Positions 2,561-60,909 of a stretch of DNA of 64,000 bases are shown in pieces. The stretch is from the human T2T-CHM13v2.0 reference genome, Homo sapiens: contig CP068257.2 of assembly GCA_009914755.4 (NCBI GenBank), positions 14,240,001 to 14,304,000 of the forward strand, read 5' to 3'. The position numbers were made by a program, and so were the translations under genes. The notes beneath the pieces were generated by a model. That model made no database searches and was not told the DNA's origin. It saw only the letters and a program-made list of their open reading frames with translations. Every line of letters starts with the position of its first letter. Positions within the stretch are counted from its first letter, which is position 1.

Positions 2561-5500
2561 CAGATATAAAACGTTTAGAAACTGTCTGCCACATTAAGTA
2601 TTCAATAATTGTGAGCCCTTTTTATAGTTTGTCAGTATTGTTTACTCCTGTTCTGGTTTTGAGGATCTTTAGCTTCCATCCTCTACCTGCATTCCTAGTG
2701 TTTTTTTTTTTCTCCCTACTTCTTAAAGTTGTGCTCAAGGTTTGGTACTTGGCCCCTTCCTCATGCTTTTCACTTTTTCTGGTTGTGTCTGTTAGTTTGT
2801 CTTCTTATTCTGCCTCCATGAATCACAGGTCATTGTTTTCTAATCATACCCATGTGAGTTCTAAACCAATACATATTTGCAGTTGTCTTTTCATCACATA
2901 TACCTGGATGTTTCGCAGACACTTTCGACTTGGCACATCTGAATTCATCACTTTTTCCCAAATCTGATTGTCTCATACTCCCTTGATGAAATGATGTAAT
3001 AATCCCAAAATGAATTATTCTCAATTCTACTTTTACCTCCCATTGATTACCAAGTGTCAGCATGTCAGATTTTTTAATACTCCTTAGTACTATGGCTGAT
3101 GAGGTCCGTCATCTCTTAGTTTGACTGTTAGATTTGTCCCTGAGTAGCACTGTCTTTGATTTTGCCCCTGAAATTCATCTTCACACTGTTGACAGAATAA
3201 TCTTTTAAAGTGGTTTGTTTTACATGTCTGTCTTCCACTGCTGGACTGAGCTCTTAACAGGAGATTGTATCTCTTGTTTTTGTAATCCTAGCACCTGTTA
3301 AAATAACTAGCAACTTAGAGGTGCAGTCTTGCAGGTTTTCTGACCCTCCAGTCACCCTAGACCTGCACTGATACAGTTTTCGTTAGCCATTTAAATTTAA
3401 ATAAAATTGAACATTCTGTTAATTAGTAATACTAGCTATATTTCAAATGCTCATAGCCACATGTTACTGTTGACTACTATATTGGACAACATTTTAGAAC
3501 ATTTCGATTATCATAGGAAGTTTCATTGGACAGAGCTGCCCCAGCAGACCTTTGCTGATGTGGATGTCTTTCTGTATTAACATCCTTTTAACATTCAGAC
3601 ACCTCCCAAATGCTAACCTTAATAGATTGGCCTTCAGCATTTATGTCTCTCTATCTTGATCCTGCAATTGATGACTTTACTATGTCTGCTCTGCAGAGAG
3701 CACCACTACCAGCATGTGTCCAATCAGGAAAGCCGACACTACATATTTCAACAGAGGAGATGTGAGTACAGAGGCATTAGAGAGTAACCCGGGGATCACA
3801 ACTGTAGGATGCAGCTACTAGTCCTAAGGGTAAGAAAACAAATGGGAAAAAATTGGGGCTGCCAGAGCCTTAAAGCTCCAAAAAGGGTCATCATGGCATT
3901 AGTGCTCAGACCCCTGAGGAGGCTTACCACCTACCTGCTCATGGTAATTCTGAGGGGTAAAGTAACGACAGTTCTAGAAGTTTCGAAGTAGTTGAAGGCT
4001 GGAATTTGCTGCCGTTATTACAAAGCTGATAGGACTAGCCATCAGAGATGAACTAGATCTTTTTTCATCTTCCTGCCAACTTCCCTGTAGTACTTCCTAC
4101 TGGCAGAACCTAATAAGCAGCAGTCAGAGGGGTCAGAGAAGTGTAGTTTGCAGAGTCCCGGCCTCAGCACACAGAGCAGAGGACAGAAGGGTGGAATTGG
4201 AGCTGAGAAACAATAGATGAAGAACCAGCACACTGGTTTCCTTCAAAGACTCATTTTTATCTAAAGGTATTAGTCCCTAAAACGCCAGATACTCAGGAAT
4301 TTGTAGAGAAATTCTGGGCCCTCAAGAATAAGTGTACTAGTTCGAATTGAAATCTTGTTACTCTTTTCTGTTAAACGAGACTGTAATGCTGCTATATAGT
4401 GCTTAACTTTTAAAATTGACAGTGGATGAATCTGCATATTATAGTCAGGTGTTCATGTCCATCCATTCATTTATTGAGTGCCTACCACATGCCACACAAT
4501 CTATCAGGTGGTATGTATATAAAATAAAACTTAGATAATAAGACAAAAGTAATAATTCACCCAAATTCATCTATAAATCCAGACTTAGGGACTGTTGACA
4601 TTTTTGTGTTCGTGCCTGTGGACATCTTTCTGTGCATATGCATGTACACACATCACAATATCATAAAAAGTTTATAAATGCAGATGTTTCCAAGAAAGTG
4701 TGTATTCATCTACCTCTCTCCTGCTGTATAGTATTTGATTATAAGGAGAATGCTCCATTACTATTTACCTGTGGACATAGAGCATAGGCTGCTACATATG
4801 TCTCTATATACTTTATGCACTTTGTCTTTCCACTAAAATTTCTCAAGGTATAATTTCTGTCTGGGTCACTGAATATGTAGATTTAAAATTTTGAGCTACA
4901 TTTTTCAAACTGCCCTTCACCAAAGATGTTACAGTTTACACTGCCACCAATAGTACATGAGACTGTTCTTTCATACATTCAATAACAGAATATTATTGAC
5001 CTTTAATTTGTTTGATAGCCAAAAGTGTGTTCTTCGCATTTCAAAATTTTTAGTGAGAGCATATTCCAATATGTTAATTGACTATTTGTATTTCTTGTAT
5101 AGTTAACTACCTGTTTACATCCTTTACACTTTTTCTTTTGGGTGTTTATGTCTGTAACTTGGCAGTAGCTCATATTAGGAATCATTATTATACACGTTGC
5201 AAATATTTTTACAATTAGTTTATTTATTATTGCATTATAACCATGCTTACGTAGTGGTGCTCTACTATTTCTGCCTTAGGTATAATGTTTAGAATTTTCT
5301 CTGGTCAGGGTTATAAAAATACTCATGTTTCTCCTGATATTTTTATGATTTCATTTTTAGATCAGTCTTTAATGCAGTTGACAGTTACATTAAAGTAGTG
5401 AAATAGTCAACATTTTCTGTCAGTATTATCTGGTTGTCATAATACCATTTATAAAATAATTCCTGCTCTTCCTCATTGATCTAAAATGTAACTTCCACTA

Positions 5501-6763
5501 GATAATCATATTTATGTTTGATATTTACAAATACTATTCAGTTCTATTTTGTCTGTTCAGCTACTTTCACTGATTTAATTATTGTTGCTTCTTGTTTGAC
5601 TATATATTTAAAATATTTGTTTTATAACTAATACAAGGTTTCATACCTAATAGGTCAAGTATTACTTCCCAACACATACACCCTTATCTCTTTCATAATT
5701 CCATACTCTTTTACAGATAAACTGTAGAATTATTTAATCTTCCTTCAAATACAGGTTCTATTGGTATTCTGATTATAATACAGGATACATAGATACATAC
5801 GACATTGCATGGGTCACATAAATTGTGGCACCTTTTCAATATTAATATTCTTATTCATAAAGAATATTGTTTGTCCTATTAGGTTCATATGCCCCTCAGT
5901 AAAGTTTTTAGATTATTTTTCTTTAGTCAGGTATCTTAATGTGTTTTAATGTTCTTGTATTTATGAATGTGCTCCTTTTTTCTCCCCCTTTACAAAAATG
6001 TTTTCTAATTGAATATTTTCATTTTTTAAATCTCAGAACCTCTTCACACAAATTAGTAAGGGCCTCAGAGAACTTTTATGTTGGCAGGTATGTCTGCTAA
6101 TATTTACCACTTCAGAAATTAAAAATGTAATTGAAAAGTGACATGTCTATGTAACATTTATGTTAGCATAAATATTTTAAGTGAAAAATGGCTAAATTTT
6201 TTGCCTAGCCCTTCTTTTGGAGGCTTGTAGGGAAATAAAATACTGATTATATCTGTCCCTGTACTCACACTTCAAGAATAACACATAGAATTAACTTGGA
6301 ATTTGGACTAGCAAAGACTGAATTATTGATCATCTTAAAAATGGATGGAAATCATTTTTCATGGTAGTCGTATGATTTCTTGGCAATTAGCTAATTTCTC
6401 AGGAAAATTAAGGGTGACAGTGTGGAAGGTAGGCATCTCCGTCAGTGTGGAAATACCACCCTCTAAGACAACTGCTTTATGCGTGGGTTGTACTTCCCTT
6501 GCCGCATAGTTTGAAAATGTCTCCAGGAAGAAAGTTTACCGGGTGTGCTTTACTGCTCTCAAGTATTGCAGCCTTGTGCTATCCATTGTCCAGACACTGA
6601 AAAGAATTGCTTCATATATTTTTACCCAACTTTGATTATTAATGGCAGGAAAGTTATTCAGATACCAACTGTTCCATGATGGTTAAATCTCAGAAATCTA
6701 TAATTCTCATAGAAGATACCATAGGAGAGTATCTTTAAATCTTGGAATAACAATGGGTCTCTT

Positions 6764-11089: not shown

Positions 11090-14000
11090 AAAGTGAAACT
11101 AGGCTGAACTTGGCTGATGCCCACCTATGTTGGAAATATTTAAACCAGCCCTAGCCAGAGAGAAATTGCCCATCTGGTGGTCAGAACTTGAGTTCTGGCA
11201 AGACTCGCTGCCACAAGCTAAAGTGCTCTGGTGCCCTAAATTAACTTGAAAGGCAGTCTGGTCTAGGTGAATCCAGGTGCTGAACTGGCCTCAGAACCAC
11301 TGGACTTGGCGGTGGAGGGGGGCATGTAACTTACTGAGACACCAGCCAGGATGGCTAAGGGAGAGCTTGTGCCACCACCCCCCAAACCCCAGGCAGCACA
11401 GCTTGTGACTCCAAAAACCCCTTCCTTCCACTTGAGGAGAAGGGTGTGGGGCTGTAGTAAGGAGAGCTTTCTCCTGCATCTTGGATACCAGCTCAGCCAC
11501 AATAGGATAGGGCACTAGTTAGAGACATGAACCCTCATTTCCAGGCCCTAGCTCCTGGGTGACATTTCCAGACACAGATCAGAAGGGAGTCTGTTGCCTT
11601 GAAGGGAAGAGCCCAGTCTTGGCAGGATTCATCACCTACTAACTGAAGAATGCTTGGGCCCTGAATAACCAGCAGTAATACCCACGTAGTATGCTGTGGG
11701 CCTTGGGTGAGACTCTGAGACTTGGTGGCTTCAGGTACCAGCTTGGCCACAAGGGAGTAGTGCACCAAATGGGCTCTTGGAGATCTCTGATTTAGGCCTT
11801 GGCTTTTGGACAGAATGTTTGGACCTGCCCGTGAAAAGATAGGGAAGAGTGAGAAGAACTGCATCTCATTGTTTGAGTGCCAGCTCAGCTGCAGTAAAAT
11901 AGAATTCCAGGTAGATGTCTCAGATTTTTGACTCCAGTCCCTGGCTTCTGGATGGCACCTCTGGACATGCCCGAGGCCTAGGGAGCTCACTGCCCTAAAG
12001 GGAAGGACACATGCCTGGCTGGCTTTGCCATCACCTGATTTGTAGAGCCCCAGGGACTTGAGTGAACATAGGCAGTAGCCAGGTCGTGGTTACAGTGGAC
12101 CTTGCATGAGACACAGTGCTGTGCTGCCTTCAGGTCTAACCCAGGGCAGTCCCAATAGTAGTGGCGACAGGGGTGCTTGTGTCACCTCACCTCCAGGTGG
12201 CTCAGAATGGAGAAAGACTCTTTGTGAGAAAATAAGAGGACAAGAGTCGCTGTCTAGTAATTCAGAGAATTCTACCAGATCTTTTCCAAGACCACCAAAG
12301 TGCTACATCTACAAGTCTGCAAGAACCACAGCATTACTGGGCTTGGGGTGCCCCCTAATGCAGATATGAATTAGGTCACAACACCCAAGTCCTTTTGAAT
12401 GTCTGGAAAGCCTTCACAAGAAAAATGGGTAAACAACAAGCCCAGACTATGAAGACTATAATAAATACCTAACTCTTCAATGCTCAGACACAGATGAGCA
12501 TGCATAACCGTAAAGACCGTCCAGGAAAACAACCTTGCCAGATGAACTAAATCAGGCACCAGGGATCAATTCTGGAGAAACAGATATGTGACCTTTTGGA
12601 CAGATAATTCAAAATAGCTGTGTTGAGGAAGCTTAAAGAAATTCAAGATCACACAGAGAAGGAATTCAGAATTCTATCAAATTCAACAGAGACTGAAATA
12701 ATTAAAAGGAATCAAGCAGAAATACTGGAGTTGAGAAATACAATTGGCATACTGAAGAATGCATTAGTCTTGTAATAGCGAATTGATTAAGCAGAAGAAA
12801 GTGAGCTTGAAGAGAAGCTATTTGAAAATACACAGAGGAAGCAAAAGAAAAAAGAAAAACAACGAAGCACACCTACAGGATCTAGAAATAGCCCCAAAAG
12901 GGCAAATCTAAGAGTTATTGGCCTTAAAGAGGTGATAGAGAAAGAGATAAGGGTAGAAAGTTTATTCAAAGGGATAGTAGAGAGCTTTTCAAACCTAGAG
13001 GAATATATCAATATCCAAGTACAAGAAAGTTATAGAAAATCAAGCTGATTTAACCCGAAGAAGACTACTTCAAGGAATTTAATAAATCAAACTTCGAAAG
13101 ATCAGGGAAAAAGAAAGCATTCTAAAAGCAGCAAGAGAAAAGAAATAAATAACATTTAAAGAAGCTTCAGTACATCTGCCAGCAGACTTTTCAGGAGACA
13201 GTAGCATGATATTTGTAAAGTGCTGAAGGAAAAATTCTCTTACCTTAGAGTAATACATCCAGCAAAAATATCCTGTAAACATGCAGGAGAAATAAAGACT
13301 TTCACAGACAAACAAAAGCTGAGGGATTTCATTCACACTAGGCCTATCCTACAAGAAATGCTAAAGGGAGAACTTCAGAAAGAAAAAGACATTAATGAGC
13401 AACAAGAAATCATGTGAAAGTATAAAATTCACTGGTAATAGCAAGTACACAGAAAAACACAGAATATTATAACACTGTAACTGTGGTGTGTAAACCACTC
13501 TTAAGTAGAAAGACCAAAAGATGAATCAATCAAAAATAATAACTACAACAATTTCCAAAACATAGTACAATAAGATATAATTAGAAACAACAAAAAATTT
13601 AAAAGTGGGGAGACGAAATTCAGTTGTAGAGTTTTTATTTTCCTTTTTCCTGTTTGTTTATGTTGTTACATAACATAAACTTAACAGTGTTAAGTTGTTA
13701 CCAGCTTAAGATAATAGGTTATAAAATAGTATTAATATTTGCAAGCTTCACGGTTATCTCAAATCAAAAAACATAATGGATACACACGCATAAAAAAACA
13801 AGAAATTAAATTATACTACTAGAGAAAATCACCTTCACTAAAAGGAAGACAGGAAGGAAGAAAAGGAAGGGAAGACCACAAAACAACCAGAAAACAAATA
13901 ACAGCATGGAAGGAGTAAGTCCTTACTTATCAATAATAACATTGAATATAAATAAAGTTTCCAATCAAAAGTGGCTAAATGTATTTTTTTAAAAAAAGAT

Positions 14001-17000
14001 TCCATGATCCATTGCCTACAAGAAACTTCATCTCTAAAGATACACATATACTGAAAATAAAAGAATGGAAAAAGATATTCCATGACAATGCAAACCAAAA
14101 AAGAGCAGGAGTCACTATACTTCTCTCAGACAATTAGATTTCAAGACAAAAGCGATAAGGAGAGACAAAGATTGTCACTGTATAATGAAAAACGGGTCAA
14201 TTCAGCAAGAGGATATCACAATTTTAAATATATATGTACCTAATGCTGGAGCACCCAGATACATTAAGCGAGTAGAGGTAAAGAGAGCGATAGACTCCAA
14301 TACAGTAATAGCTGGAGACTTACCAACACTCCACTCTCAATATTGAACAGAGAATCCAAACAGAAAATCAGCAAAAATGCATCAGATTTAATTTGTACTG
14401 TAGGCCAAATGGACCTAATAGATATTTACAGAATATTTTATCCAATGGCTGCAGAATACACATTCTTCTCTTTGGCACATATATTATTCTCAAGGATAGA
14501 CCATAGGTTAGGTCACAAAACAAATCTTTTTTAAAAAATTTGTATTTTGGGTTTGGAGGTACATGTGAAGATTTGTTACATCGATAAACATGTGTCATGG
14601 GGGTTGTACATATTATTACATCACCCAGGTATTAAGCTCAGGATCCAATATTTCTCTTTTCTGTTCCTCTCCCTCCTTCCACCCTCCCCTCTCAAGTATA
14701 CCCCAGAGTCTATTGTTTTCTTCTTTGTGTTCATAAATTCTTACAATTTAGACAAAACAAGTCTGAAAGCATTAAAAAAAGAAATAACATCAAGCATCTT
14801 CTCTGACCATGATGGGATAGAACTAGAAATTAATAACAACAGAAATTTTGGAAACTACACAAATACATGGAAATTAAGCAATATGCTTCTGAATGAACAG
14901 TGGGTCAATGAAAAAAATTAAGAAGGAAATTGAAGAAATTAAGAAGGAAGCATATGTGCCTACATCGAAAAAGAAGAAAAACTTGAAATAAACAACTTAA
15001 CGATCCATCTTGAAGAACTAGAAAAGCAACAGCAAACCAAACCCAAAATGAGTAGAAGAAAAATAATAAAGATCAGAGCAGAAATAAATTTGAAATTAAA
15101 AAAACACAAAGGATCAATTAAACAAAAAAGTTTTTAAAAAGGTCAACAAAATTGGCAAACCTTTAGCTAGACTAAGAATAAAAGATTCAAATAAATAAAA
15201 TCAGAGATATACAAGGAGACATTACAACTGATAGCACAGAAATTTAAAGGATCATTAGTGGCTACTATGAGTAACTTATGCCAATAAATTGGAAAACATA
15301 AAATAAATGGACAAATTCCTAGACACATACAACCTACCAAGATTGAACCATGAGAAAATCCAAAATCTAAAGAGACCAATAACAAGTAAAAACAAAAGCC
15401 ATAATAAAAAGTCTCCCAGCAAAGAAAAGCCTGGGATTCAGTGGCTTCCCTGCTGAATCCTTCAAAACATTTAAAGAACGATCAATCCTACTCAAGCTAT
15501 TCCAAAAAAATACAGGAGGAGGGAATACTTCCAAACTTATTCTACAAGGTCAGTAATAACCCTGATATCAAAACCAGACAATAACATCAAAAAAGACAAC
15601 TATAGGCCAATATCACTGATGAATATTGATGCAAAAATCCTCAATAAAATACTAGCAAACCAAATTTAACAACATATTATAGATAATTCATTATGTCCAG
15701 GTTGGATTTATCCAAGGGATGCAAGAATGGCTCAACACATGCAAATAAATTAATGTGATACATCATATCAACAGAATAGAAAACAAAAACTATATGGTCA
15801 TTTCAACTGATGTGGAAAAAGCATTTGATAAACTTCAACATCTCTTCATGATTTAAAAAAACTCTCAAACAACTGGCTATAGAAGGAACATACCTCAACA
15901 TAATAAAAGGCATATATGACAGACTCATAGCTCTTATCATATTGAATGGGGTGAAACTGAAAAACCTGTCCTCTAAGATTGGGAACAAGATGAGGATGCC
16001 CACTTTCACCACTGTTATTACACATAGTACTGGAAGTCCTAGCTAGAACAATCAGACAAGGGAATGAAATAAAGGACATCAAAATTGGAAAGGAAGAAGT
16101 CAAACTATTCTTGTTTGAAAATAATATGATCTTATATTTAGGAAATCCTGAAGACTCCACCAAAAAACTATTAGAACTGATAAATTCAGTAAAATTGCAG
16201 GATACAAAATCACCATAGAAAAATCAGTGGCTTTTCTATATGCCAGCAGCAAACAATCTGAAAAAAAATTCAAGAAAATAATCTCATTTACAATAGCTAC
16301 AAATAAAATAAAATACCTGGGAATTAACCAAAGTAGTGAAAGATTTCTACAATGAAAACTATAAAACATTATGCAAGAAATTGAAGAGGATGCAAAAAAA
16401 TGGAAAGATACTTCATGTTGATGGATTGGAAGAATCAATATTGTTAAATGTTCATATTACCCAAAGGAATCTACAGACTTAAAGCAATCCCTATCAAAAT
16501 ACCAATGATGTTCTTCACAGAAATAGAAGAAAAAAATCATGATATTTATATGGAGCCACAAAAGACCCAGAATAGCCCAAGCTATCCTGAGCAAAAAGAA
16601 CAAAACTGGAGGAATCACATTACCTGACTTAAATTATGTTATGGAGCTATAGTAACCAAACAGCATGGAACTGGCATAAAAACAGACACATAAACCAATG
16701 GAACATAAGAGAGAACCCAGAGATAAATCTATACATCTACAGTGAACTCATTTTTGATAAAGGTGCTAAGAACATTCATTGGGGAAAGTCTCTTCAATAA
16801 ATGGTGCTGAAAAAACTGGGTATCTATATGAAGAAGAATGAAACTAGACCTCTATCTGTCACCATGTATAAAAATCAAAATGGATTAAAGACTTAAATCT
16901 AAGATCTCAAACTATGTAATTTCTATAAGAAAACATGAGGAAAACTCTCCAAAACATTGGTTTGGGCAAAACTTCTTGAGAAATACCCCATAAGCACAGG

Positions 17001-18178
17001 CAATCAAAGCAAAAATATACAAATACAATCAGGTCAAGTTAAAAATCTTCTGCACAGCAAAAGATGCAATCAACAAAGTGAAGAGACAGCCTACAGAATG
17101 TAAGAAAATACTTGCAAACTACCCTTCTGAAAAGGGATTAATAGCCAGAATCCATAAGAAGTTCAAATAACTCTTTAGGAAAAAAAGTCTAAAAATCCAA
17201 TCAAAAAATGGGCAAAAGATTTGAATAGACGTCACTCAAAAGAAGACATGGAAATAATAAATATAAAAATGTGCTCAACATCATCAATCATCAGCTAAAG
17301 TGCAACTCAAAACTACAATGAGAGATGTCTTCTCACCTCAGTTAAAATGGCTTGTATCAAAAAATCAGACAATAACAAAAGTTGACGAGGATGTGGAGAA
17401 AAGGGAAACCTGTACACGATAGGAATGTAAATTAGTACTACTATGGAAAACAGTTTGGAGATTCCTCAAACAACTAAAAATAGAGCTACCATACAATGCA
17501 GCAATCCCACATAACCCAAAATAAAAGAAATCATATATTGAAGAGTTATCTGCACTCTCATATTTATGGCAGTATTATTCACAATAGCCAAGATTTGGAA
17601 TCCACCTAAATGTTCATCAACAGATGAATGGATAAAGAAAATATGGTACATATACATAATGGAGTATTATTTGGCCACTTAAAAAGAATGAGATCCTGTC
17701 ATTTACAACAACATGGATGGAACTGGAGGTCATTATGCTAAATGAAATAAACCAGTCTCAGAAAGAAAAACTTCACATGTTCTCACTTATTTGTGGGAGA
17801 TAAATATAAAAAAAAAAAATGAACTCATGGAGATAGAGTAGAAGGATGGTTACCAGATGTTGGGAAGGGTATTAAGGAAGGTGGGGTTGGTGAAGTGGGG
17901 AGGGTTAATGTGTATAAAAAAAAATAGAATAAATAAGAACTAGTATTTGCTAGCCCAACGGGGTGACTGTAGTCAAAAATAATGTAATTGTATATTTTAA
18001 AATAATTAAAAGTGTATAACTGGATTGTTTGTAACACAGAGGATAAATGCTTGAGGTGATGGATAACCCATTTACCCTGATGTCATTATTATACATTGCA
18101 TGCATGTGTCAAAAGATCTCATGTAACCCATAAACATATACACCTACTATGTAGCCACAAAAATTAAAATTAAAAATT
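11090..18178 (+). mobile_element. near-full-length older primate L1 (L1P; L1PB/L1PA-old-like). The 5'UTR is at ~11090-12420, degenerate ORF1 at ~12425-13420 and degenerate ORF2 at ~13890-17800, with the 3'UTR running to ~18178.
   Basis: The ORF1 translation reads 'MGKQQAQTMKTIINT...ELRNTIGILKNAL...IKTFTDKQKLRDFIHTRPILQEMLKGELQ'. ORF2 begins with 'ITLNINKVSNQKWLN' and ends in 'MFSLICG'. The 3'UTR '...gatggttaccagatgttgggaagggtattaaggaaggtggggttggtgaagtggggagggttaatgtgtataaaaaaa...tgtattttaaaataattaaaagtgtataactggattgtttgtaacacagaggataaatgcttgaggtgatggataacccatttaccctgatgtcattatt' is typical of the L1PB/L1MA 3' end. Many frameshifts and stops are present. The 5' boundary is uncertain. Confidence 0.75.
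14528..14760 (-). mobile_element. short L1 3'-end fragment nested inside ORF2 of the L1P element
   Basis: 'ggaggtacatgtgaagatttgttacatcgataaacatgtgtcatgggggttgtacatattattacatcacccaggtattaagctcagg...ccctccttccaccctcccctctcaag' resembles the reverse complement of an L1P 3' end ('gggtacatgtgcaggtttgttacatag...cacccaggtattaagc'). Confidence 0.4.
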
Positions 18179-26182: not shown

Positions 26183-26513
<331 letters not shown>

Positions 26514-26632
26514 CTATTTTTTTAAATTTTCAATCATCCTCTGCATGGCAGCTTTACAATTTAGAGAAACGTTTTCCCCAAGTAAAATTTAATTCTGCAT
26601 ATTTAACTTTTCTTGTCTGAATCATTCTTTTC

Positions 26633-29882
<3,250 letters not shown>

Positions 29883-29981
29883 TTTTTTTTTATGGCTTAA
29901 CATATTTTTAATACGTTTAGGTGAAAATAGTGTTTCGTTTCTATGAGGCTGCATCTGTTTTTTGTTTTTGTTTTTGTTTTT
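29883..29981 (-). other. 3' flank of the young L1. It consists of a (TTTTTG)n-type A-tail (29958-29981), a 66-bp non-L1 segment (29892-29957) and a second T9 run (29883-29891). I read this as a candidate L1 3' transduction.
   Basis: On the minus strand the order is L1 3' end, then (CAAAAA)n, then 'cagatgcagcctcatagaaacgaaacactattttcacctaaacgtattaaaaatatgttaagccat', then A9, then the TSD. An ATTAAA polyadenylation hexamer lies ~15 nt upstream of the second A-run. Confidence 0.55.
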
Positions 29982-30198
29982 AATTTTATTATTATTATAC
30001 TTTAAGTTTTAGGGTACATGTGTACAATGTGCAGGTTAGTTACATATGTATACATGTGCCATGCTGGTGTGCTGCACCCATTAACTCATCATTTAGCATT
30101 AGGTATATCTCCTAATGCTATCCCTCCCCCGTCCCCCCACCCCACAACAGTCCCCAGAGTGTGATGTTCCCCTTCCTGTGTCCATGTGTTCTCATTGT

Positions 30199-33937
<3,739 letters not shown>

Positions 33938-34086
33938 TTTGCCAGTCTGTGTCTTTTAATTGGAGCATTTAGTCCATTTACATTTAAAGTTAATATTATT
34001 ATGTGTGAATTTGATCCTGTCATTATGATATTAGCTGGTTATTTTGCCAGTTGGTTGATGCAGTTTCTTCCTAGCCTCGATGGTCT

Positions 34087-34833
34087 TTACAATTTGACAT
34101 GATTTTGCAGTGGCTGGTACCGGTTTTTCCTTTCCATGTTTAGTGCTTCCTTCAGGAGCTCTTGTAGGGCAGGCCTGGTGGTGACAAAATCTGTCAGCAT
34201 TTGCTTGTCTGTAAAGGATTTTATTTCTCCTTCACTTATGAAGCTTAGTTTGGCTGGATATGAAATTCTGGGTTGAAAATTCTTTTCTTTAAGAATGTTG
34301 AATATTGGCCCCCACTCTCTTCTGGCTTGTAGAGTTTCTGCCGAGAGATCCACTGTTAGTCTGATGGGCTTCCCTTTATGGGTAACCCAACCTTTCTCTC
34401 TGGCTGCCCTTAACATTTTTTCCTTCATTTCAACTTTGGTGAATCTGACAATTATGTGTCTTGGAGTTGCTCTTCTCGAGGAGTATCTTTGTGGCGTTCT
34501 CTGTATTTCCTGAATCTGAATGTTGGCCTGCCTTGCTAGATTGGGGAAGTTCTCCTGGATAATATCCTGCAGAGTGTTTTCCAACTTGGTTCCATTCTCC
34601 CCGTCACTTTCATGTACACCAGTCAGACGTAGATTTGGTCTTTTCACATAGTCCCATATTTCTTGGAGGCTTTGTTCATTTCTTTTTATTCTTTTTTCTC
34701 TAAACTTCCCTTCTCGCTTCATTTCATTCATTTCATCTTCCATCACTGATACACTTTCTTCCAGTTGATTGCATCGGCTCCTGAGGCTTCTGCATTCTTC
34801 ACGTAGTTCTTGAGCCTTGGCTTTCAGCTCCAT
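34087..34833 (-). pseudogene. L1 ORF1 remnant; the N-terminal region is disrupted upstream
   Basis: The 248-aa ORF 'MELKAKAQELREECRSLRSRCNQLEE...RPNLRLTGVHESDGENGTKLENTLQDIIQENFPNLARQANIQIQEIQRTPQRYSSRRATPRHIIVRFTKVEMKEKMLRAAREKG...KLSFISEGEIKSFTDKQMLTDFVTTRPALQELLKEALNMERKNRYQPLQNHVKL' has the L1 ORF1p coiled-coil, RRM and CTD regions. The expected 'MGKKQNRKTG' start is not in frame. Confidence 0.9.
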
Positions 34834-36138
34834 CAGCTCCTTTAAGCACTTCTCTGTATTGGTTATTCTAGTTATACATTCGTCTTAATTTTTTTCAGTT
34901 TTCAACTTCTTTGCCTTTGGTTTGAATTTCCTCCTGTAGCTTGGAGTAGTTTGATCATCTGAAGCCTTCTTCTCTCAACTCATCGAAGTCATTCTCCGTC
35001 CAGCTTTGTTCCGTTGCTGGTGAGGAGCTGCGTTCCTTTGGAGGAGGAGAGGCACTCTGCTTTTTAGAGTTTCCAGTTTTTCTGTTCTGTTTTTTCCCCA
35101 TCTTGGTGGTTTTATCTACTTTTGGTCTTTGATGATGGTGATGTACAGATGGGTTTTTGGTGTGGATGTCCTTTCTGTTTGTTAGTTTTCCTTCTAACAG
35201 ACAGGACCCTCAGTTGCAGGTCTGTTGGAGTTTGCTAGAGGTCCACTCCAGACCCTGTTTGCCTGGGTACCAGCAGTGGTGGCTGCAGAACAGTGGATTT
35301 TCGTGAACCGCGAATGCTGCTGTCTGATCATTCCTCTGGAAGTTTTGTCTCAGAGGAGTACCCGGCAGTGTGAGACGTCAGTCTGCCCCTACTGGGGGGT
35401 GCCTCCCAGTTAGGCTGCTCAGGGGTCTGGGGTCAGGGACCCACTTGAGGAGGCAGTCTGCCCGTTCTCAGATCTCCAGCTGCATGCTGGGAGAACCACT
35501 GCTCTCTTCAAAGCTGTCAGACAGGGACATTTAAGTCTGCAGAGGTTACTGCTGTCTTTTTGTTTGTCTGTGCCCTGCCCCCAGAGGTGGTGCCTACTGA
35601 GGCAGGCAGGCCTCCTTGAGCTGTGGTGGGCTCCACCCAGTTCGAGCTTCCTGGCTGCTTTGTTTACCTAAGCAAGCCTGGGCAATGGCAGGCACCCCTC
35701 CCCCAGCCTCGCTGCCACCTTGCAGTTTGATCTCAGACTGCTGTTCTAGCAATCAGCGAGACTCCCTGGGCATAGGACCCTCTGAGCCAGGTGCGGGATA
35801 CAATCTCCTGGTGTGCCATTTTTTAAACCTGTTGGAAAAGCGCAGTATTGGGGTGGGAGTGACCTGATTTTCCAGGTGCCATCTGTCACCTCTTTCTTCG
35901 ACTAGGAAAGGGAACTCCCCGACCCCTTGTGCTTCCCGAGTGAGGCAATGCCTCGCCCTGCTTCAGCTTGCGCATGGTGCACTGCACCCACTGTCCTGAG
36001 CCCACTGTCTGGCACTCCCTAGTGAGATGAACCCCGTACCTCAGATGGAAATGCAGAAATCACCCATCTTCTGCGTCACTCACACTGGGAACTGTAGACC
36101 GGAGCTGTTCCTATTCGGCCATCTTGACTCCAGCCCCC

Positions 36139-37215
36139 ATAACTTATTTATTTCTGCTTTCATTTTGTTATTTACCCAGTAGTCATTCAGGAGCAGGTTG
36201 TTCAGTTTCCATGTAGTTGTGAGGTTTTGAGTGAGTTTCTGAATCCTGAATTCTAATTTGATTGCATTGTGGTCTGAGAGACAGTTTGTTGTGATTTCTG
36301 TTCTTTTACATTTGCTGAAGAGTGTTTTACTTCCAATTATGTGGTCAATTTTAGAATAAGTGCATTGTGGTGCTGAGAAGAATGTATATTCTGTTGATTT
36401 GGGGTGGAGAGTTCTGTAGATGTCTATTAGGTCTGCTTGCTGCAGAGCTGAGTTCAAATCCTGGATATCCTTGTTAACCTTCTGTTTCGTTGGTCTGTCT
36501 AATATTGACAATGAGGTGTTAAAGTGTCCCATTATTATTGTGTGGGACTCTAAGCCTCTTTGTAGGTCTCTAAGGACTTGCTTTATGAATCTGGGTGCTC
36601 CTGCATTTGGTACATATGTATTTAGGATAGTTAACTCTTCTTGTTGAATTGATCCCTTTACCATTACGTAATCGTCTTCTTTGTCTCTTTTGATCTTTGT
36701 GGGTTTAATGTCTGTTTTATCAGAGACTAGGATTGCAAACCTTGCTTTTTTTTTTTCTTTCCATTTGCTTGGTAGATCTTCCTCCATCCCTTTATCTTGG
36801 GCCTATATGAGTCTCTGCACGTGAGATGGGTCTCCTGAATACAACACACTGATGGGTCTTGACTGTTTATCTAATTTGTCAGTCTGTGTCTTTTAATTGG
36901 GGCATTTAGCCCATTTACATTTAAGGTTAATATTGTTATGTGTGAATTTGATCCTGTCATTATGATATTAGCTGGTTATTTTGCCAGTTAGTTGATGCAG
37001 TTTCTTTGTAGCATCGATGCTCTTTACAATTTGGCATGTTTTTGTAGTGGCTGGTACCGGTTGTTATTTTCCATGTGTAGTGCTTCCTTCAGGAGCTCTT
37101 GTAAGGCAGGCCTGGTGGTGACAAAATCTCTCAGCATTTGCTTGTCTGTAAAGGATTTTATTTCTCCTTCACTTATGAAGCTTAGTTTGGCTGGATATGA
37201 AATTCTGGGTCATTC
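36139..37215 (-). mobile_element. older L1PA, 5' portion (ORF2 N-terminus / inter-ORF / ORF1 C-terminus). This is part B of the split 5'-truncated L1 and continues part A at 26633-29882.
   Basis: The sequence resumes at exactly the L1 position where part A stops, with 'ataacttatttatttctgctttcattttgttatttacccagtagtcattcaggagcagg'. The minus-strand ORF 36080-36787 translates to the L1 EN domain. The element ends in ORF1 C-terminal sequence at ~37215. The outer flanks share 'tcattct', a possible TSD of the older element. Confidence 0.85.
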
Positions 37216-59957: not shown

Positions 59958-60909
59958 TTTTATTTTATTATTTTATTTTCCATAAGTTATTGGGGTACGG
60001 GTATATTTGGCTACATGAGTAAGTTCTTCAGTGGAGATTCATGAGATCCTGGTGCACCCATCATCCAAGCAGTATACACTGCATCATATTTGTTGTCTTT
60101 TATCCCTTGCTCCCCTCCCACTCTTCCCCCCAAGTTCCCGAAGTCCATTATATCATTTTTATGCCTTTGTGTCCTCATAGCTTAGCTCCCACATATCATT
60201 GACAACATATGATCTTTGGTTTTCCATTCTTGAGTTACCTCACTTAGAATAATAGTCTCCAATCTCAACCAGGTCATTGCAAATGCTATTAATTCATTCC
60301 TTTTTATGGCTGAGTAGTATTCCACAGTTTCTTTACCCACTCCTTGATCAATAGGCACTTGGGTTGGTTCCACAATTTTGCATTTGTGAATTGTGTTGCT
60401 ATAAACATGAGTGTGCAAGTATATTTTTCAAATAATGGCTTCTTTTCCTCTGGGTAGATACCCAGTAGTGGGATTGCTGGATCAAATGGTAGTTCTATTT
60501 TTAGTTCTTTAAGAAATCTCCACACTGTTTTCTGTGGTGGCTATACTAGCTTACAATCCCACCAGCAGTGTAGAAGTGTTCCCTCATCACTGCACCCACG
60601 CCAACATCTCCTATTTTTCTATTTTTTGATTATGGCCATTTTTGCAGGAGTACGATAATTTTTTGACTATGACTTTTTTGCAGGAATACAGTGGTATCAC
60701 TTTGTGGTTTTGATTTGCATCTCCCTGATCATTAGTGAAGTTGAGCATTTTTTCAAATGTTTGTTGACCGTTAGTTTATCTTCTTTTGAGAATTGTCTAT
60801 TCATGTCCTTAGCCCACTTTTTGATGGGATTGTTTTATTCTTATTGATTTGTTTGAGTTTGTCGTAGATTCTGGATATTAGTCCTTTGTCAGATGTATAG
60901 ATTATGAAG
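59958..60909 (-). mobile_element. 5'-truncated L1P (L1PB/L1MA-like) 3'-end insertion, ~0.95 kb, minus strand, with a 12-bp TSD 'gtaaatcaacta'
   Basis: 'ggggtacgggtatatttggctacatgagtaagttcttcagtggagattcatgagatcctggtgcacccatcatccaagcagtatacactgcatcatatttgttgtcttttatccc...ccccccaagttcccgaagtccattatatcatttttatgcctttgtgtcctcatagcttagctcccacatatcattgacaacatatgatctttggttttccattcttgagttacctcacttagaataatagtctccaatctcaaccaggtc' is the reverse complement of the L1PB-type 3' end. A T-rich tail lies at 59958-59982. The TSD lies at 59946-59957 and at ~60911-60922. Confidence 0.82.

What the first reader, a model, noticed from the sequence alone, without database searches (positions are those of the whole stretch)
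29883..29981. Candidate L1 3' transduction: 66 bp of non-L1 sequence between two A-tails at the 3' end of the young full-length L1
Read on the L1 sense (minus) strand, the order is L1 3' end ('...taaaacttaaagtataataataataaaatta'), then a (CAAAAA)n A-tail, then 'cagatgcagcctcatagaaacgaaacactattttcacctaaacgtattaaaaatatgttaagccat', then A9, then the TSD. An ATTAAA poly(A) signal sits ~15 nt before the second A-run. This is the textbook layout of a read-through transcript polyadenylated at a downstream genomic signal. If real, the 66-mer is a tag copied from the 3' flank of the progenitor L1 and can be used to find the source locus.
Basis: partly seen in the sequence, partly recalled or inferred. 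Interest (0 to 1): 0.6.

Follow-up and report, generated by a model that had tools for sequence, protein, structure and literature searches.

The report
Probable short L1 3' transduction
A full-length but dead primate L1 retrotransposon carries 66 extra non-L1 bases and a second poly(A) tail inside its target-site duplication, which is the ordinary signature of an L1 transcript that read through into its source locus's flank, though the source locus could not be looked up here.

Summary
On the minus strand the order is: L1 body (36138 to 29994), an A-rich first tail ending in (AAAAAC)3AAAAAA (29993-29958), a 66-nt unique segment (29957-29892), A9 (29891-29883), then flank.

The L1 landed inside an older, 5'-truncated L1 that is collinear across the insertion. 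This reconstructs the empty site. A 17-nt target-site duplication (AGAAA[T/G]AAATAAGTTAT; 36155-36139 and 29883-29867) brackets the whole composite. The true TSD is therefore not next to the first tail, and the 66-mer is not target DNA.

The 66-mer resembles no L1 or other sequence in the window, and no Rfam family. It has ATTAAA exactly 15 nt before the A9 run (chance about 5-9%).

A partnered 3' transduction is the best explanation (about 0.8). The decisive test, a second copy of the tag just 3' of another L1, could not be run, because no collection available here holds primate genomic DNA. A later tiny retrocopy inserted into the L1 tail, or a template-switch chimera, would look identical.

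The L1 is not "young": both ORFs are broken. The phenomenon is common (about 25% of L1 insertions), so interest is low.

The parts
36139..36155 (-). Upstream (5') copy of the target-site duplication, AGAAATAAATAAGTTAT, part of the host L1 ORF2 sequence
   Evidence: It abuts the first G of the inserted L1 at 36138. Host-L1 alignments overlap by 15 nt in L1 coordinates.
29994..36138 (-). Full-length L1PA-type element, GGGGGCTGGAGTCAAGATGG... to ...CTTAAAGTATAAT, with disrupted ORF1 and ORF2
   Evidence: The C-terminal 522 aa of ORF2 match human LINE-1 ORF2p 8uw3 residues 754-1275 with 29 differences by my count (about 94% identity). The canonical end GTATAAT was set by comparison with the host L1 3' end.
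29958..29993 (-). First A-rich tail: AATAATAAAATT + (AAAAAC)3 + AAAAAA. It contains the L1's own weak AATAAA. Inferred to be the progenitor's genomically encoded tail.
   Evidence: TRF period 6, 3.8 copies, 100% matches at 29959-29981.
29892..29957 (-). 66-nt unique non-L1 segment (candidate transduced tag). ATTAAA poly(A) signal at 29907-29912, 15 nt before the A-run.
   Evidence: Exact match only to itself in the window. Smith-Waterman scores against all L1 copies do not exceed shuffles. No Rfam match with E below 3. A signal placed 10-30 nt upstream occurs by chance in 4.9-8.5% of controls.
29883..29891 (-). Second (terminal) poly(A) tail, A9. The last A is shared or ambiguous with the TSD.
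29867..29883 (-). Downstream (3') copy of the target-site duplication, AGAAAGAAATAAGTTAT, followed by host L1 ORF2 sequence TTGAAACAAATGAGAAC...
36139..37210 (-). 5' part of the host: an older 5'-truncated L1, 91% identical to the insert
   Evidence: (insert positions 1868-2934).
26628..29883 (-). 3' part of the host L1 (90% identical to the insert), running to its own 3' end and A-tail
   Evidence: (insert positions 2920-6175).

Best explanation
This is a partnered L1 3' transduction. A full-length L1PA progenitor elsewhere in the genome was transcribed from its 5' UTR promoter. RNA polymerase II ignored the weak L1 AATAAA and read through the progenitor's genomically encoded A-rich tail into 66 nt of flanking DNA. 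The transcript was cleaved and polyadenylated about 15 nt after an ATTAAA in that flank. L1 ORF2p then nicked a T-rich site inside an older L1 copy (bottom strand 5'-...TTATTTCT/GC), primed on the new poly(A), and reverse-transcribed the whole RNA. The result is L1 + old tail + 66-nt tag + new A-tail, flanked by a 17-nt target-site duplication. Shown here: the layout, the TSD bracketing the composite, the reconstructed empty site, the non-L1 nature of the tag, and the placement of the poly(A) signal. Inferred: that the tag comes from the 3' flank of the progenitor, and that everything was inserted in one event.
For: (1) The strings and order are exactly as described. (2) The host older L1 is collinear across the insertion. 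Insert-L1 coordinates 1868-2934 map to 37210-36141 and 2920-6175 map to 29883-26628, a 15-nt overlap that equals the TSD. Direct alignment shows the 17-nt duplication with 1 mismatch abutting the L1 5' G-run on one side and the A9 on the other. (3) The 66-mer is neither host nor L1 sequence. The best local score against any L1 copy is 9-12, against shuffle means of 10.9-13.3. Against the rest of the window the score is 17, against a shuffle mean of 15.3 and maximum of 19. BLAST finds only 9-10-mers. (4) ATTAAA lies 15 nt upstream of the terminal A-run, which occurs in only 4.9-8.5% of control 66-mers. (5) No known structured RNA matches, which argues against a snRNA-type chimera. (6) Priors from the literature (PMC13009371): about 25% of L1 insertions carry a 3' transduction, 71% of transductions found by long reads were under 100 bp, 72% of partnered ones had two poly(A) tails, and 79% ended 10-30 bp after a poly(A) signal.
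Against: No second copy of the tag next to another L1 was found, because none of the searchable collections contains primate genomic DNA. The source is therefore unverified. The layout alone cannot exclude a second, independent event inside the first tail. A9 is short for a fresh tail, although tails shorten with age. The inferred nick site TTTCT/G is only a loose match to the TTTT/A consensus.
Confidence: 0.8

Rival explanations
1. Two events. The L1 inserted normally with one long A-tail. Later a severely 5'-truncated retrocopy, consisting of the last 66 nt of some polyadenylated Pol II transcript plus its tail, was inserted by L1 machinery into that A-tail. The second event's TSD would be made only of A's and would be invisible.
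For: A-tails are favoured L1 endonuclease targets (established knowledge). The 66-mer ends like an mRNA 3' end, with ATTAAA 15 nt before the A-run. It is flanked by pure A on both sides (AAAAAA before, A9 after), which could hide a poly-A TSD.
Against: It needs two independent events at one target of about 30 nt, so the prior is far below the roughly 25% rate of transduction (rate argument is inference). The A9 would have to hold the new tail, a TSD copy and the remnant of the old tail.
Confidence: 0.08
2. A template-switch chimera. Target-primed reverse transcription began on an unrelated polyadenylated RNA and copied its last 66 nt. The reverse transcriptase then jumped onto the poly(A) tail of an L1 RNA and copied it to full length.
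For: L1-mediated chimeric retrocopies formed by template switching are documented (my own knowledge: the U6/L1 and similar chimeras of Buzdin and colleagues). The layout would be identical, with a single TSD.
Against: Known chimeras usually have a small nuclear RNA as the 5' partner and lack an internal A-tail. Rfam finds no small RNA here. The scenario requires trans-use of a cellular mRNA followed by a full 6.1-kb copy, and both are rare (inference).
Confidence: 0.05
3. The 66-mer is a fragment of another interspersed repeat family, or locally rearranged DNA, so it is not a usable unique tag.
For: The 66-mer could not be compared with a repeat library (Dfam/Repbase), and it is AT-rich (67% A+T).
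Against: It shows no similarity to any of the L1, Alu or other sequences in 64 kb of surrounding DNA on either strand. It lies inside the TSD, so it is not target DNA. It is not a tandem or low-complexity repeat (one search reports only the tail).
Confidence: 0.05

Closest known systems
Partnered L1 3' transduction. From my own knowledge: Moran et al. 1999; genome surveys by Goodier et al. 2000, Pickeral et al. 2000 and Szak et al. 2003. Short-transduction survey: PMC13009371.
   Same: L1 3' end, then an internal A-rich tail, then unique non-L1 DNA, then a poly(A) signal 10-30 nt before a terminal A-tail, with one TSD around the whole unit. The 66-nt length falls in the under-100-bp class that made up 71% of transductions in PMC13009371.
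   Different: The source locus and any sibling insertions are not identified here. The element is an old, fixed-looking, inactivated L1PA rather than an active L1HS.
L1-mediated chimeric retrocopies formed by RT template switching (U6/L1 and similar; my own knowledge)
   Same: Two different RNA-derived segments lie within one TSD, ending in a poly(A).
   Different: In those chimeras the L1 or mRNA is the 3' partner and a small RNA is the 5' partner, usually with no A-tail between them. Here the full-length L1 with a tail is the 5' partner, and no small RNA is detected.
Nested retroelement insertion into an existing poly(A) tail
   Same: A short poly(A)-terminated segment sits in an A-rich tract.
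   Different: That case would require a second event with its own A-only TSD. Nothing in the sequence demands one.

Membership tests
L1 3' transduction (partnered) | A sense-oriented L1 3' end directly upstream of the extra segment, usually with the progenitor's A-rich tail between them | tested here: met
   ...CTTAAAGTATAAT followed by a 36-nt A-rich tail at 29993-29958. The canonical end was fixed by comparison with the host L1 3' end.
L1 3' transduction (partnered) | The extra segment is non-L1, non-repetitive sequence | tested here: met
   Tested only against the sequences in the window and against Rfam: no similarity above shuffles. Not tested against Dfam/Repbase.
L1 3' transduction (partnered) | A poly(A) signal 10-30 nt upstream of the terminal poly(A) | tested here: met
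   ATTAAA with 15 nt to the A9. Chance frequency is 4.9% in random window 66-mers and 8.5% in shuffles.
L1 3' transduction (partnered) | A single target-site duplication flanks L1 + extra segment + terminal tail, and the empty site lacks the segment | tested here: met
   A 17-nt TSD with 1 mismatch at 36155-36139 and 29883-29867. The host L1 is collinear across the insertion with a 15-nt overlap.
L1 3' transduction (partnered) | An L1 endonuclease-type target (T-rich / purine nick site on the bottom strand) | tested here: inconclusive
   The bottom strand reads 5'-TTATTTCT/GC-3'. This is a pyrimidine run followed by a purine, but not the TTTT/AA consensus (read; the consensus is from my own knowledge).
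L1 3' transduction (partnered) | The same segment is present in the genome immediately 3' of the progenitor L1 (and/or in sibling insertions) | not testable with these tools
   Scans of metagenome, bacterial-genome and viral collections gave only 18-21-nt chance matches. The viral collection holds no L1PA 3' end at all. The locus's own ORFs are not on record in the assembly index.
Template-switch chimeric retrocopy / retrocopy inserted into the tail | The segment maps to the 3' end of a transcript that is not adjacent to an L1 | not testable with these tools
   No primate genome or transcript collection is available. Rfam shows no small-RNA origin.
Young / retrotransposition-competent L1 | Intact ORF1 (about 338 aa) and ORF2 (about 1275 aa) | tested here: not met
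   The longest ORFs are 248 aa in the ORF1 region and 347, 134, 158 and 522 aa in the ORF2 region. The ORF2 C-terminal 522 aa are about 94% identical to human ORF2p.

The most novel reading that the evidence does not exclude
The 66-mer may not be progenitor flank. It could instead be the 3' end of an unrelated cellular transcript joined to a full-length L1 cDNA by template switching, giving a full-length L1/mRNA chimera. Alternatively, if it is a true tag, it may mark a family of sibling L1PA insertions that identifies one long-lived 'master' source locus active in ancestral primates.
Probability: 0.1. Interest if true: 0.25.

Novelty: already known. Interest (0 to 1): 0.1.

Why it matters
If the tag maps next to another L1PA, it links this copy to its source locus and to any siblings. 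That helps in reconstructing which L1PA loci were active in ancestral primates. It is also a clean worked example, because the nesting in an older L1 allows the empty site to be reconstructed without a comparative genome. It changes nothing about how L1 is understood to work. About a quarter of L1 insertions carry such tags, and most tags are under 100 bp (PMC13009371).

Tried and rejected
**Searches for a second copy of the tag**
- A second copy of the 66-mer was sought in the window (blastn-short, word size 7). There was none, only 9-10-mers.
- The first 20 nt of the tag were scanned against metagenome contigs and genome contigs. Each gave one hit, both in microbial contigs, with identity ending after 20-21 nt, so both are chance matches.
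- Two other tag sub-strings were scanned against viral contigs. They gave 0 hits and 4 chance hits of 18-19 nt.
- A control scan with the L1PA 3' end 27-mer found nothing in viral contigs. That collection therefore cannot speak to the question.
- Exact-protein look-ups of the 40-aa ORF spanning the tag and of the 522-aa ORF2 fragment found no record. The assembly index gives no route to this or related primate loci.
- For that reason I ran no further search on the tag's 21 to 22 codons.

**Other origins for the 66-mer**
- Rfam search of 29700-30200 at E up to 10 gave only noise: E of 3.3 or more, and 9.5-12.7 bits against gathering scores of 45-61.
- The idea that the 66-mer is rearranged L1, for example from twin priming or an inversion, is rejected by local alignment against both strands of all five L1 segments in the window.
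- The idea that the true TSD abuts the first tail is rejected. The 66-mer start shares nothing with the 5' flank, and the host L1 collinearity places the junctions at 36139 and 29883.

Full report
**Observation**

On the minus strand (the L1 sense strand) the region reads as follows:

...CCCTAAAACTTAAAGTATAAT | AATAATAAAATTAAAAACAAAAACAAAAACAAAAAA | CAGATGCAGCCTCATAGAAACGAAACACTATTTTCACCTAAACGTATTAAAAATATGTTAAGCCAT | AAAAAAAAA | GAAAGAAATAAGTTAT TTGAAACAAATGAGAAC...

The coordinates are:
- first A-rich tail: 29993-29958
- 66-mer: 29957-29892
- A9: 29891-29883

Tandem Repeats Finder reports the hexamer array at 29959-29981 (period 6, 3.8 copies, 100% matches). The only canonical poly(A) hexamer in the 66-mer is ATTAAA, and it lies 15 nt before the A9 run.

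**The L1**

The element starts at 36138 with GGGGGCTGGAGTCAAGATGGCCGAATAGGAACAGCTCC. It runs about 6.15 kb to the GTATAAT end, so it is full length.

It is not young in the functional sense:
- The longest ORF in the ORF1 region is 248 aa.
- ORF2 is broken into pieces of 347, 134, 158 and 522 aa.
- The C-terminal 522 aa match human LINE-1 ORF2p (PDB 8uw3, residues 754-1275) with 29 substitutions by my count, about 94% identity.

From my own knowledge of L1PA diagnostic 3' UTR positions, it looks like a mid-aged L1PA, roughly L1PA3-5. No repeat library was available to confirm this.

**Target site and empty-site reconstruction**

The sequence on both sides of the insertion is itself L1 ORF2 sequence from an older, 5'-truncated copy in the same orientation. 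BLAST of the inserted element against the window gives two host segments:
- insert positions 1868-2934 align to 37210-36141 (91% identity)
- insert positions 2920-6175 align to 29883-26628 (90% identity)

The host is therefore collinear across the insertion, and the 15-nt overlap is the duplicated target.

Direct comparison gives AGAAATAAATAAGTTAT (36155-36139), abutting the first G of the new L1. The other copy is AGAAAGAAATAAGTTAT (29883-29867), abutting the A9. This is 17 nt with one mismatch, 11 nt exact.

Three points follow:
- The TSD brackets the whole composite: L1, tail 1, 66-mer and A9.
- The TSD is not adjacent to the first tail.
- The 66-mer is not part of the target DNA.

The inferred bottom-strand nick site, 5'-TTATTTCT/GC, is a pyrimidine run followed by a purine. 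That is only a loose match to the TTTT/A consensus for the L1 endonuclease.

**Nature of the 66-mer**

- Composition is 27 A, 17 T, 14 C and 8 G. It is not a tandem repeat.
- It has no second copy in the 64-kb window.
- Local alignment against both strands of the inserted L1, both halves of the host L1 and two much older L1 fragments scores 9-12. Shuffled versions average 10.9-13.3.
- Against the rest of the window it scores 17, with a shuffle mean of 15.3 and a maximum of 19. It is therefore not L1-derived and does not match any other repeat present in the window.
- Rfam gives only noise, with E of 3.3 or more. A snRNA, tRNA or rRNA origin is unlikely.
- A poly(A) hexamer placed 10-30 nt from the end occurs in 4.9% of random 66-mers from the window and in 8.5% of shuffles. 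This is modest but real support.

**Search for the source**

None of the available collections contains primate genomic DNA.
- The first 20 nt of the tag gave one hit each in the metagenome and bacterial-genome collections. Both are microbial contigs that match for only 20-21 nt.
- Two other sub-strings gave no hits, or 18-19-nt chance hits, in viral contigs.
- A control scan with the L1PA 3' end found nothing in the viral collection.
- Exact look-ups of two ORFs from this locus were not on record.

The decisive prediction, a second copy of the tag immediately 3' of another L1, remains untested.

**Interpretation**

The layout meets every criterion for a partnered 3' transduction that the sequence itself can test. 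A recent long-read survey (PMC13009371) supplies the priors:
- About 25% of L1 insertions carry a transduction.
- 71% of detected transductions were under 100 bp.
- 72% of partnered ones had two poly(A) tails.
- 79% ended 10-30 bp after a poly(A) signal.

The most likely history is as follows. A progenitor L1PA was transcribed through its own weak AATAAA and its genomically encoded A-rich tail, now (AAAAAC)n. Transcription continued 66 nt into the flank, and the RNA was polyadenylated after the ATTAAA. The RNA was then inserted by target-primed reverse transcription into an older L1. I put this at about 0.8.

Two rivals would give an identical layout:
- A later, severely 5'-truncated retrocopy inserted into the L1's A-tail, with an invisible all-A TSD (about 0.08).
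- A template-switch chimera, in which reverse transcription started on another polyadenylated RNA and then jumped to the L1 RNA's tail (about 0.05).

Both need rarer events. A repeat-fragment origin (about 0.05) could not be excluded against Dfam.

**Verdict**

The phenomenon is textbook and common. The instance is an old, inactivated L1PA. Interest is low (0.1) and the novelty category is "already known".

Noticed in passing
window 26628-29883 and 36139-37210 (minus strand): The insertion host is an older 5'-truncated L1 (about 4.3 kb, 90-91% identical to the insert), split in two by the full-length L1. Its 5' junction reads ...ACATAGAATG|ACCCAGAATTTC, and its 3' end reads ...GTATAATAAAAAAATAAAAGTACAAAAAAAAGAAAAGAATG|ATTCAG. 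This suggests a short host TSD around AGAATG.
   Followed up: partly
window 13257-17798 (+) and 60168-60908 (-): Much older L1 fragments, about 69% identical to the inserted L1. They were used only as extra negative controls for the 66-mer.
   Followed up: no
window ~26480-26514 (minus strand): An Alu-like 5' end (GGCCTGGCACGGTTGCTCACGCCTGTAATCCCAAC) begins about 110 nt 3' of the host L1's tail.
   Followed up: no
window 29832-29954 (minus strand): A 40-aa ATG ORF (MQPHRNETLF...) starts inside the 66-mer and runs through the A9 and TSD into the host L1. It is almost certainly fortuitous and is not on record in the assembly index.
   Followed up: yes
window 29892-29957: The AT-rich 66-mer keeps two CpG dinucleotides (AACGAA, AACGTA), whereas the L1 5' UTR shows many CpG-to-TpG changes relative to the L1 consensus as I remember it. 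This may be chance and its significance was not assessed.
   Followed up: no
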